Shown here piece by piece: positions 27,767 to 30,078 of a stretch of 64,000 nucleotides of DNA; position 1 is the stretch's first letter, and each line of letters opens with the position of its first letter. The notes under the pieces were generated by a model, which had not been told where the DNA came from, ran no database searches, and saw only the letters and a list, made by a program, of their open reading frames with translations. The position numbers were made by a program, and so were the translations under genes. Source of the stretch: the human T2T-CHM13v2.0 reference genome, Homo sapiens; assembly GCF_009914755.1 (NCBI RefSeq), contig NC_060940.1, one strand, 5' to 3'.

Positions 27767-30078
27767 GGAGGTGTCTTGAGATTATCATCGGCTGAGGGTG
27801 GAAGCGGCCCCCGCAGACGCTCGGCAGGTGTCTTGATATTATCATCTGCTGAGGTTGGAGCTGAGGGTGGAAGGGGAGTGAGCTGACGCTCGGAAGGTGT
27901 CTTGAGATTATCATCCGCTGAGGGTGGAAGCGGCCCCCGCAGACGCTCGGCAGGTGTCTTGATATTATCATCTGCTGAGGGTGGAGCTGAGGGTGGAAGG
28001 GGAGTGAGCTGACGCTCGGAAGGTGTCTTGAGATTATCATCGGCTGAGGGTGGAAGCGGCCCCCGCAGACGCTCGGCAGGTGTCTTGATATTATCATCTG
28101 CTGAGGGTGGAGCTGAGGGTGGAAGGGGAGTGAGCTGACGTTTGGAAGGTGTCTTGAGATTATCATCCGCTGAGGGTGGAAGCGGAACCCACAGACGCTC
28201 CCCGCAGACGCTCGGCAGGTGTCTTGATATTATCATCTGCTGAGGGTGGAGCTGAGGGTGGAAGGGGAGTGAGCTGACGCTCGGAAGGTGTCTTGAGATT
28301 ATCATCGGCTGAGGGTGGAAGCGGCCCCCGCAGACGCTCGGCAGGTGTCTTGATATTATCATCTGCTGAGGGTGGAGCTGAGGGTGGAAGGGGAGTGAGC
28401 TGACGCTCGGAAGGTGTCTTGAGATTATCATCGGCTGAGGGTGGAAGCGGCCCCCGCAGACGCTCGGCAGGTGTCTTGATATTATCATCTGCTGAGGGTG
28501 GAGCTGAGGGTGGAAGGGGAGTGAGCTGACGCTCGGAAGGTGTCTTGAGATTATCATCGGCTGAGGGTGGAAGCGGCCCCCGCAGACGCTCGGCAGGTGT
28601 CTTGATATTATCATCTGCTGAGGGTGGAGCTGAGGGTGGAAGGGGAGTGAGCTGACGCTCGGAAGGTGTCTTGAGATTATCATCGGCTGAGGGTGGAAGC
28701 GGCCCCCGCAGACGCTCGGCAGGTGTCTTGATATTATCATCTGCTGAGGGTGGAGCTGAGGGTGGAAGGGGAGTGAGCTGACGCTCGGAAGGTGTCTTGA
28801 GATTATCATCGGCTGAGGGTGGAAGCGGCCCCCGCAGACGCTCGGCAGGTGTCTTGATATTATCATCTGCTGAGGGTGGAGCTGAGGGTGGAAGGGGAGT
28901 GAGCTGACGCTCGGAAGGTGTCTTGAGATTATCATCCGCTGACGGTGGAAGCGGAACCCGCAGATGCTCAGCAGGTATCTTGATATTATCATCTGCTGAG
29001 GGTGGAGCTGAGGGTGGAAGGGGAGTGAGCTGACGCTCGGAAGGTCTCTTGAGATTATCATCCGCTGAGGGTGGAAGCGGAACTGCAGATGCTCGGCAGG
29101 TGTCTTGATATTATCATCTGCTGAGGGTGGAGCTGAGGGTGGAAGGGGAGTGAGCTGACGCTCGGAAGGTGTCTTGAGATTATCATCCGCTGAGGGTGGA
29201 AGCGGCCCCCGCAGATGCTCGGCAGTTGTCTTGATATTATCATCTGCTGAGGGTGGAGCTGAGGGTGGAAGGGGAGTGAGCTGACGCTCAGAAGGTGTCT
29301 TGAGATTATCATCGGCTGAGGGTGGAAGCGGCCCCCGCAGACGCTCGGCAGGTGTCTTGATATTATCATCTGCTGAGGGTGGAGCTGAGGGTGGAAGGGG
29401 AGTGAGCTGACGCTCAGAAGGTGTCTTGAGATTATCATCCGCTGAGGGTGGAAGCGGCCCCCGCAGATGCTCGGCAGGTGTCTTGATATTATCATCTGCT
29501 GAGGGTGGAGCTGAGGGTGGAAGGGGAGTGAGCTGACGCTCAGAAGGTGTCTTGAGATTATCATCCGCTGAGGGTGGAAGCGGCCCCCGCAGACGCTCGG
29601 CAGTTGTCTTGATATTATCATCTGCTGAGGGTGGAGCTGAGGGTGGAAGGGGAGTGAGCTGACGCTCGGAAGGTGTCTTGAGATTATCATCCGCTGAGGG
29701 TGGAAGGGGATGGAGCAGACACTCGGCACGTGTCTTGAGATTATCATCCGCTGAGGGTGGAGCTGAGGGTGGAGCTGAGGGTGGAAGGGGAGTGAGCAGA
29801 CACTCGGGAGGTGTCTTGAGATTATCATCCGCTGAGGGTGGAAGGGGAGTGAGCAGACACTCGGGAGGTGTCTTGAGATTATCATCCGCTGAGGGTGGAA
29901 GGGGAGTGAGCAGACACTCGAGAGGTGTCTTGAGGCTCAGGGAGTTATCAGTTATACAATGTTGTTGAGTTGGAGGAGGTGGCTGGTGGCCCATCCTGTT
30001 TTTTAAAGTTTCAGCTGTGAGGTAGGGCCAGTAGGGCAATCCTGAAGAATGACGATGCTCCGCTGCCGCCATTCTGAC
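27487..30078 (-). CDS. NPIPB11: NPIPB terminal coding exon (863 aa) with VNTR and basic tail
   Basis: ctacag|GTC AGA ATG; equals ORF 27487..30108 minus its first 10 intronic codons; ends PKRRRLS-TGA. Confidence 0.93.

What the first reader, a model, noticed from the sequence alone, without database searches (positions are those of the whole stretch)
28201..29085. Dual-coding VNTR with a frame switch and compensating return
Seen: the 126-nt unit is stop-free in two minus-strand frames ([13 protein letters not shown], acidic/Pro-rich; [18 protein letters not shown], His/hydrophobic); the third frame has TGA-TAA in every monomer. A 1-nt loss at 29081-29085 (CCCCCG>AACTG) enters the second frame for 7 units, and a 13-nt duplication at 28201-28213 (CCCGCAGACGCTC) returns to the first (net +12). 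One DNA repeat thus builds an A-B-A protein, and only the return keeps the Alu tail in frame; the second frame otherwise stops at 27762. Inference: the 19/23-aa periodic B block could fold as a beta-solenoid, and each block can change length independently. I recall this switch being noted for some NPIPB paralogs, so novelty is partial.
Basis: partly seen in the sequence, partly recalled or inferred. Interest (0 to 1): 0.8.

Follow-up and report, generated by a model that had tools for sequence, protein, structure and literature searches.

The report
NPIPB11 repeat read in two frames
The last exon of the human gene NPIPB11 holds a 126-base tandem repeat that one protein reads in one frame, then a second, then the first again, and this real feature is already annotated and published.

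Summary
The annotated NPIPB11 coding sequence (1077 aa) reads the 126-nt (69+57) exon-8 repeat in the SADDN frame. A 1-nt loss at 29081-29085 moves it to the MIISR frame for 7 units. A 13-nt tandem duplication (28201-28213 and 28188-28200) brings it back, so translation reaches the basic KRRR tail. It is not an assembly error: all 8 expanded NPIPB arrays in this genome have exactly one entry and one return lesion.

It is also not new. RefSeq annotates it, and Pfam has a family for the B block (PF20885, E 1.4e-184). Three papers describe it: De Grassi & Ciccarelli 2009, Bekpen 2017, and Dishuck 2025. The last reports the frame switch and return, 8,986 Iso-seq molecules with the pattern, and a predicted left-handed beta helix.

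A second open frame is what this base composition gives by chance (80% of codon-order shuffles). I found no sign of selection on the B frame. My own fold of the B block is weak (pLDDT 50).

One detail I did not see in print: B11 enters the B frame by -1 nt, and the other seven copies by -19 nt. The two forms differ by exactly 18 nt.

The parts
27769..29899 (-). Exon-8 coding tandem array. The period is 126 nt (69-nt SADDNL half plus 57-nt SADDNI half), with older 57/81-nt units at its 5' end.
   Evidence: TRF: 16.7 copies, 94% matches, score 3673. Segment table.
29124..29891 (-). A1 block, read in frame A (PLPPSADDN...). It has three older units (29697-29891), then five 69-nt and four 57-nt segments.
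29068..29123 (-). Entry segment of 56 nt instead of 57. The lesion lies at 29081-29085 (plus strand AACTG) and shifts reading from frame A to frame B. This form occurs once in the genome.
   Evidence: The pattern search finds 1 place genome-wide.
28189..29088 (-). B block of 300 codons, read in frame B ([10 protein letters not shown]... with alternating 23- and 19-aa motifs) for 7 units.
   Evidence: Pfam PF20885 NPB13-l_MII_rpt: E 1.4e-184, 608 bits against a cut-off of 36.
28243..28872 (-). Five consecutive identical 126-nt units inside the B block, which indicates a recent expansion.
   Evidence: Segment classes 8 and 14 alternate five times.
28173..28242 (-). Return segment of 70 nt instead of 57. 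It holds a 13-nt tandem duplication (28201-28213, with its copy at 28188-28200) and shifts reading from frame B back to frame A.
   Evidence: The same duplication occurs at 8 places genome-wide, one per expanded array.
27772..28188 (-). A2 block, read in frame A again, with three 126-nt units.
27487..27771 (-). C-terminal tail of 94 aa plus the stop codon ([20 protein letters not shown]...KRRRLS*). It includes an 87-nt tandem repeat at 27496-27734 and is derived from a dispersed repeat.
   Evidence: TRF: 87-nt period, 2.8 copies. blastn of the tail against the window hits dozens of dispersed places on both strands. The name AluY comes from Bekpen 2017.
27762..27764 (-). TAG at which frame B would end if there were no return.
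   Evidence: frame 1 stop list.
28160..28165 (-). TGA TAA of the third frame. An allele with the duplication but no entry lesion would stop here.
   Evidence: frame 2 translation and stop list.

Best explanation

The 126-nt unit has no stop codon in two of its three frames. The reading frame is therefore set only by two small lesions fixed in the DNA. A 1-nt loss moves translation from the acidic, proline-rich SADDN frame into the His- and hydrophobic-rich MIISR frame. Seven units later, a 13-nt tandem duplication moves it back. The ribosome then reads on into the Alu-derived basic KRRR tail, which published work links to nuclear localisation.

The units themselves are interchangeable DNA. Slippage, unequal exchange or gene conversion can lengthen or shorten each block without touching the frame.

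Shown here: the lesions, the continuous ORF, their presence in all 8 expanded paralog arrays, the variable block sizes, and the same DNA strings read in both frames. Shown in print: transcripts with the pattern, and a 95-kDa NPIPB band. Inferred: that the B block folds as a beta helix and has a function of its own.
For: - The ORF is continuous across both junctions.
- The lesions lie at the stated bases.
- 8 of 8 expanded arrays in this genome read A-B-A as one open frame, each with one entry and one return segment.
- Genome-wide, the return pattern occurs at 8 places, the -19 entry at 7 and the -1 entry at 1.
- Identical segments are read in both frames within one ORF.
- Pfam PF20885 matches the B block at E 1.4e-184.

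From papers (passages seen):
- Dishuck 2025 lists B3, B4, B5, B11, B12 and B13. It reports SADDN (7-15) to MIISR (6-14) to SADDN (5-11), 8,986 Iso-seq molecules with the pattern, and a left-handed beta helix predicted for both frames.
- Its Table S5 lists an isoform B11_1 of 1077 aa, the same length as the ORF here (the cell is cut at 400 characters).
- De Grassi & Ciccarelli 2009, section 11 read whole: 57- and 69-bp units translated in two frames give four amino-acid repeats.
- Bekpen 2017: a frameshift converts PLPPSA to MIISR; an AluY insertion gave the PKRRR tail; the C-terminal part is needed for nuclear localisation; a 95-kDa band was seen.
Against: - I saw no protein-level evidence for B-frame peptides. 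Dishuck 2025 says proteomic data are sparse.
- Among distinct unit variants in the 8 arrays, the B block shows 6 changes silent only in frame A, 3 silent only in frame B, and 7 silent in neither. The A blocks show 5, 1 and 6. This gives no sign of constraint on frame B.
- Two open frames are expected from the composition.
- My AlphaFold2 single-sequence models are of low confidence: B block pLDDT 49.7 and pTM 0.38; A1 block pLDDT 51.7 and pTM 0.10 with no strands. The A1 result does not reproduce the published claim that the A frame also forms a helix.
- Foldseek against the PDB found 0 matches at E <= 0.001.
Confidence: 0.9

Rival explanations
1. The frame switch is a tolerated accident and not a functional domain. 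The repeat region would be a disordered spacer. Both frames are open by composition. The pair of lesions would survive only because together they preserve the tail. The MIISR block itself would have no selected role.
For: - A second open frame appears in 80% of 20,000 codon-order shuffles.
- Variants show no excess of frame-B-silent changes in the B block: 6 silent in A only, 3 silent in B only, 7 in neither.
- The A1 block is predicted without secondary structure, pTM 0.10. The B block model has pLDDT 49.7.
- A 2026 PhIP-seq preprint describes NPIPB proteins as having prominent disordered regions (passage).
Against: - The A-B-A layout is kept in 8 of 8 arrays, and across 169 haplotypes according to Dishuck 2025.
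- The B block has expanded, including five identical units in B11.
- In three arrays a change inside the B block closes frame A (TGA) while frame B stays open.
- The AF2 model puts a strand on every xMII at a spacing of 19 or 23 residues.
- Dishuck 2025 reports signals of positive selection in the family.
Confidence: 0.35
2. B11 entered the MIISR frame independently of the other paralogs. On this reading the -1 lesion in B11 and the -19 lesion in the other seven are separate events that converged on the same frame.
For: - The two entry forms differ: a 56-nt segment in B11 only, and a 38-nt segment in the other 7.
- Bekpen 2017 describes the frameshift as the loss of a stretch of about 19-21 nt, which fits the -19 form as a single step from an intact unit.
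- A tree from 6 kb of flanking sequence does not place B11 clearly outside the other seven: support for B11 with the 30-Mb cluster is 69/70.
Against: - The 38-nt form equals the B11 form minus exactly 18 nt.
- The 57-nt unit one period downstream of the entry carries the same four or five marker changes in all 8 arrays. Both lesions therefore sit in the same orthologous unit.
- The +13 return is shared by all 8. On its own it would truncate the protein, so an entry lesion most likely already existed in the common ancestor.
- A clade of the seven -19 copies is not rejected (p-AU 0.27).
Confidence: 0.1
3. The lesions are assembly or annotation errors in a hard-to-assemble segmental duplication.
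For: The region is highly repetitive, including five identical 126-nt units, and lies in segmental duplications.
Against: - The same layout occurs independently in 8 arrays of a telomere-to-telomere assembly.
- It is present in a curated RefSeq mRNA model (hub annotation; ORF verified).
- An Iso-seq gene model B11_1 has the same 1077 aa, and 8,986 Iso-seq molecules show the pattern.
- cDNA-derived proteins were already described in 2009.
Confidence: 0.01

Closest known systems
[quoted passage not shown] 2025, Cell Genomics (PMC12790995)
   Same: This is the same gene and the same feature. It has alternating 19/23-aa motifs, a SADDN to MIISR to SADDN switch, variable block sizes, and a predicted beta helix (passages).
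   Different: Nothing differs in kind. The passages and readable supplements I saw do not give the junction lesions at base level. They also do not say that B11 enters by -1 nt while the other seven CHM13 copies enter by -19 nt. B11 has 2.8 copies of the 87-nt tail repeat and one tail repeat fewer than the others.
Pfam PF20885, Nuclear pore complex-interacting protein B13-like MII repeat
   Same: The B block matches at E 1.4e-184, 608 bits against a cut-off of 36.
   Different: None. The B block is a member of this family.
Morpheus/NPIP type 1 and type 2 internal tandem repeats (De Grassi & Ciccarelli 2009, PMC2812944)
   Same: 57- and 69-bp units translated in two frames give four amino-acid repeats, and there is an 87-bp type 2 repeat in the tail (section read whole).
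   Different: That paper counts repeats per locus and does not give the lesions. Its locus at chr16:29.30 Mb (hg18), with 37 type 1 and 3 type 2 repeats, is probably this gene. I infer that from position only.
Overprinted or dual-coding genes such as CDKN2A (INK4a/ARF) or GNAS (XLas/ALEX). These examples are recalled and come from no call.
   Same: One DNA sequence gives two unrelated peptide sequences.
   Different: In those genes the same nucleotides are translated in two frames into two proteins. Here each nucleotide is read once, and different copies of the repeat are read in different frames within a single ORF.
Frameshifted coding VNTR of MUC1 in tubulointerstitial kidney disease. This example is recalled and comes from no call.
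   Same: A small indel inside a coding VNTR turns the downstream repeats into a new repetitive peptide in another frame.
   Different: That frameshift is pathogenic and has no compensating return. Here a second lesion restores the frame, and the layout is fixed in the family.
Left-handed beta-helix proteins (LpxA, LpxD, GlmU, gamma carbonic anhydrase)
   Same: The top Foldseek rows for the B-block model are almost all of this class. Dishuck 2025 predicts a left-handed beta helix.
   Different: No match is significant: the best E is 0.064 and TM is about 0.1. The model has low confidence. The coils are 19 and 23 residues, not 18, and there is no sequence similarity.

Membership tests
NPIPB expanded-VNTR subfamily (Dishuck 2025) | The last coding exon holds an expanded VNTR of alternating 19- and 23-aa motifs | tested here: met
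   A 126-nt period (69+57) with 16.7 copies; motifs visible in the translation.
NPIPB expanded-VNTR subfamily (Dishuck 2025) | The frame goes SADDN to MIISR to SADDN within one ORF | tested here: met
   There is one entry and one return segment, with 14 MIISR motifs (7 units). That is the upper end of the published 6-14 range.
NPIPB expanded-VNTR subfamily (Dishuck 2025) | MVKL start and an N-terminal transmembrane segment | tested here: inconclusive
   The joined coding sequence starts MVKLS and has a hydrophobic stretch ([25 protein letters not shown]). No transmembrane predictor was run.
NPIPB expanded-VNTR subfamily (Dishuck 2025) | Basic PKRRRxxDVEP tail after the VNTR | tested here: met
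   Tail translation; 87-nt repeat with 2.8 copies.
Pfam PF20885 NPB13-l_MII_rpt | Score above the curated gathering cut-off | tested here: met
   608.2 bits against a cut-off of 36, E 1.4e-184, 2 stretches.
Left-handed beta helix / beta-solenoid fold | A confident model or structure with stacked coils, one per repeat | tested here: inconclusive
   AF2 single sequence: pLDDT 49.7, pTM 0.38, with 14 short strands, one on each xMII at 19/23 spacing. Foldseek: 0 matches at E <= 0.001. The A1 block shows no strands, pTM 0.10.
Overlapping (overprinted) dual-coding gene | The same nucleotides are translated in two frames | tested here: not met
   In the annotated ORF each nucleotide is read in one frame only. 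Only identical copies are read in different frames.
Programmed ribosomal frameshifting | The frame change happens at the ribosome, with no indel in the DNA; the zero-frame ORF is interrupted | tested here: not met
   The genomic ORF is continuous. The shift is encoded by -1 and +13 lesions in the DNA.

The most novel reading that the evidence does not exclude
The -1 entry of B11 and the -19 entry of the other seven copies are independent events that each put the same repeat unit into the MIISR frame. That would be a convergence, and it would argue that the MIISR block was selected for and not merely tolerated.

A milder version is more likely, at about 0.5. B11 keeps the original one-base frameshift, and the other copies later trimmed 18 nt in frame. 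B11 would then preserve the first step in the birth of this human-specific domain.
Probability: 0.1. Interest if true: 0.5.

Novelty: already known. Interest (0 to 1): 0.15.

Why it matters
The feature is a clear natural case of a new repetitive protein block born from an existing coding repeat. One small frameshift creates it, and a second, compensating lesion rescues the downstream localisation tail. This happened in a gene family under positive selection in humans. That significance is already recognised in print (2009, 2017, 2025).

- The return lesion is shared by all eight copies in the T2T genome.
- There are two entry forms, -1 in B11 and -19 elsewhere, that differ by exactly 18 nt.
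- The same DNA strings are read in both frames within one ORF.
- Sequence-based tests give no evidence yet that the second frame is constrained.

Tried and rejected
- **Rfam scan.** A scan of 27300-30200 at E <= 1 gave 0 matches, so no tool named the tail as 7SL/Alu-like. That the tail is a dispersed repeat rests on blastn within the window, and its name rests on Bekpen 2017.
- **Frame-specific substitution test.** It covered 28 distinct variants (12 in A blocks, 16 in the B block). The numbers are too few and the result is inconclusive.
- **Tree from flanking sequence.** I built it from 6 kb on the gene-5' side of 10 loci. It gives a trichotomy of B11, the 30-Mb cluster and the 21-22-Mb cluster. 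It therefore does not show which entry form is older.
- **Structure prediction.** The first request was not accepted because the tool was not ready. It was run later, as the tool instructed. Both models have low confidence.
- **Foldseek against the PDB.** Nothing was significant. I did not run the VIA-align searches, because a model with pLDDT near 50 gives meaningless matches.
- **Earlier findings of this scan.** A second call failed on a missing field and was not repeated.
- **Supplement search for junction peptides in Dishuck 2025.** It found 0 occurrences. Cells over 400 characters are cut and three PDF supplements cannot be read. A base-level description of the B11 junction may therefore exist there, or in Figure S1 of Bekpen 2017, which I could not see.
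- **Literature searches.** I ran two: NPIP, beta helix, tandem repeat; MIISR, NPIPB11, SADDN. Neither listed a paper on the B11-specific junction.
- **Assembly error.** Rejected; see the rival explanations.

Full report
**What is there**

The finding lies in the last coding exon of NPIPB11 on the minus strand. Tandem Repeats Finder reports a 126-nt array at 27769-29899 with 16.7 copies and 94% matches. It also reports an 87-nt repeat at 27496-27734 with 2.8 copies. Joining the annotated coding parts gives 3234 nt and 1077 aa with no internal stop.

In that protein the repeat is first read as PLPPSADDN[LI]KTP... (frame A). At ...[19 protein letters not shown]... it changes to [10 protein letters not shown]... 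(frame B). At ...[21 protein letters not shown]... it returns to frame A. It then runs into a 94-aa basic tail, [20 protein letters not shown]...KRRRLS.

**The two lesions**

I cut the array at a fixed anchor, which gives alternating 69- and 57-nt segments. There is one 56-nt segment (29068-29123) and one 70-nt segment (28173-28242).

The 56-nt segment has ctgcagttccgc where other units have ctgcgggggccgc or ctgcgggttccgc.

The 70-nt segment holds gagcgtctgcggg at 28213..28201, followed by gagcgtctgtggg at 28200..28188. This is a 13-nt tandem duplication. The net change is -1 + 13 = +12.

The B block has seven 69-nt and six 57-nt segments between the junction segments, so it is 7 units long.

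**Frames**

Both unit frames are free of stops over the whole array. The third frame has TGA TAA in every half unit.

Without the return, frame B would end at TAG 27764-27762 and lose the tail. With the duplication alone, reading would enter the third frame and stop at 28165-28160. So each lesion is truncating on its own, and the pair is compensating.

Identical DNA strings are read in both frames within this one ORF. The commonest 57-nt string occurs once in A1, five times in B and three times in A2. One 69-nt string occurs twice in A1 and once in B. Another occurs five times in B and once in A2. Five consecutive 126-nt units (28243-28872) are identical, which points to a recent expansion.

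**Is it more than chance?**

The open second frame is not. Exactly two open frames occur in 19% of 20,000 mononucleotide shuffles of the unit. They occur in 80% of 20,000 shuffles of the order of its frame-A codons. The paired lesions are the non-trivial part.

**Other copies in the same genome**

The window's own assembly holds eight expanded arrays, all on contig 16. All eight translate as one open A-B-A frame. Each has exactly one entry and one return segment.

Pattern searches of the whole genome find the 13-nt duplication junction at 8 places, one per array. The entry differs between copies:
- Seven copies have a 38-nt segment (-19 nt), found at 7 places.
- Only B11 has the 56-nt form, found at 1 place.

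The 38-nt form equals the B11 form minus exactly 18 nt. Both forms therefore shift the frame by the same amount.

The 57-nt unit one period downstream of the entry carries the same marker changes in all eight arrays. This makes a single origin of the B block the simplest reading.

Block sizes vary independently among the eight arrays. B units number 7, 5, 5, 5, 5, 5, 7, 6. A2 units number 3, 2, 4, 3, 3, 5, 3, 3.

A maximum-likelihood tree from 6 kb of flanking sequence groups the seven other copies into a 30-Mb cluster and a 21-22-Mb cluster. B11 is the most divergent at 0.37-0.50%, but the three-way split is unresolved. Support for B11 with the 30-Mb cluster is 69/70, and a clade of the seven is not rejected at p-AU 0.27.

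**Selection on the second frame**

I compared distinct unit variants across the eight arrays:
- A blocks: 5 changes silent only in frame A, 1 silent only in frame B, 6 silent in neither.
- B block: 6 silent only in frame A, 3 silent only in frame B, 7 silent in neither.

This gives no sign of constraint on frame B, though the numbers are small. One change inside the B block of three arrays creates a TGA in frame A while frame B stays open.

**Fold**

AlphaFold2 without an alignment gives a low-confidence model of the 300-aa B block. Mean pLDDT is 49.7 and pTM is 0.38, with 14 short strands, one on each xMII at a spacing of 19 or 23 residues.

The A1 block (207 aa) has pLDDT 51.7, pTM 0.10 and no strands.

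Foldseek against the PDB finds nothing at E <= 0.001. The best, non-significant rows are nearly all left-handed beta-helix enzymes, with best E 0.064 and TM about 0.1.

So the solenoid idea is compatible with my model of the B block but is not shown. I could not reproduce the published suggestion that the A frame also forms a helix.

**The tail**

Parts of the tail match dozens of dispersed places on both strands of the window, which is what a fragment of an interspersed repeat would give. Rfam gave no match. The name AluY comes from Bekpen 2017.

**What is already known**

- Pfam holds a family for the B block: PF20885, E 1.4e-184, 608 bits against a cut-off of 36.
- De Grassi & Ciccarelli 2009 (PMC2812944, section 11 read whole) describe the 57- and 69-bp units as translated in two frames to give four amino-acid repeats. 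They also describe the 87-bp repeat and its copy-number variation.
- Bekpen et al. 2017 (bioRxiv 10.1101/116087, passages) state that a simple frameshift converts the PLPPSA motif to the MIISR motif. They report that an AluY insertion followed by a frameshift gave the PKRRRxxDVEP tail, and that the C-terminal part is needed for nuclear localisation. They also report a 95-kDa NPIPB band, and that human IgG recognises the repeat region.
- Dishuck et al. 2025 (PMC12790995, passages) describe, for B3, B4, B5, B11, B12 and B13, the switch from SADDN (7-15 repeats) to MIISR (6-14) and back to SADDN (5-11). They report variation among 169 haplotypes and 8,986 Iso-seq molecules with the pattern. Chai-1 models show a left-handed beta helix kinked at the switches, and they give an origin about 3.1 million years ago. 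They state that proteomic support is sparse.
- Their Table S5 lists an isoform B11_1 of 1077 aa, the length found here (the cell is cut, so the junctions are not visible).

**Verdict**

The only point I did not find in print is that B11's entry lesion (-1) differs from that of the other seven copies (-19) by exactly 18 nt.

The most likely history is inferred, not shown: one ancestral entry lesion and one return, followed by an 18-nt in-frame deletion on the branch to the other copies. Three PDF supplements of Dishuck 2025 and the supplementary figures of Bekpen 2017 could not be read. This detail may already be shown there.

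Noticed in passing
window 29068-29123, compared with loci L021-L027: B11 enters the MIISR frame through a 1-nt loss. The seven other expanded copies in the same genome enter through a 19-nt loss in the same unit. The two forms differ by exactly 18 nt.
   Followed up: yes
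window 29090-29092, 28965-28967, 29216-29218, 29468-29470 (approximate); segments listed: A B11-specific G>A change (GAGCATCTG, giving AEHL in frame A) recurs in two A1 units, in the entry unit and in the second B unit. This suggests homogenisation within the array across the frame boundary. Likewise the TTCC variant of the G-run is found in the entry unit, the second B unit and the return unit of B11, but only in the second B unit of the other copies.
   Followed up: partly
L024, L026, L027 (contig 16 at 22.81, 21.68 and 21.34 Mb): These three copies share three features. A 3-nt deletion in the first B unit gives MISR instead of MIISR (a 66-nt segment). A 12-nt shorter unit in A1 reads [18 protein letters not shown]>G change in the B block creates a TGA in frame A.
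   Followed up: partly
window 27496-27734: The 87-nt tail repeat has 2.8 copies in B11, and the tail has one repeat fewer than in the other seven copies. The other copies also end ...[11 protein letters not shown], where B11 ends ...[11 protein letters not shown].
   Followed up: no
window 27847-29088: RefSeq marks two 'enhancer' functional elements (27847-28468 and 28469-29088) that lie wholly inside the coding VNTR. I did not examine what assay they come from, or whether multi-mapping in the repeat could explain them.
   Followed up: no
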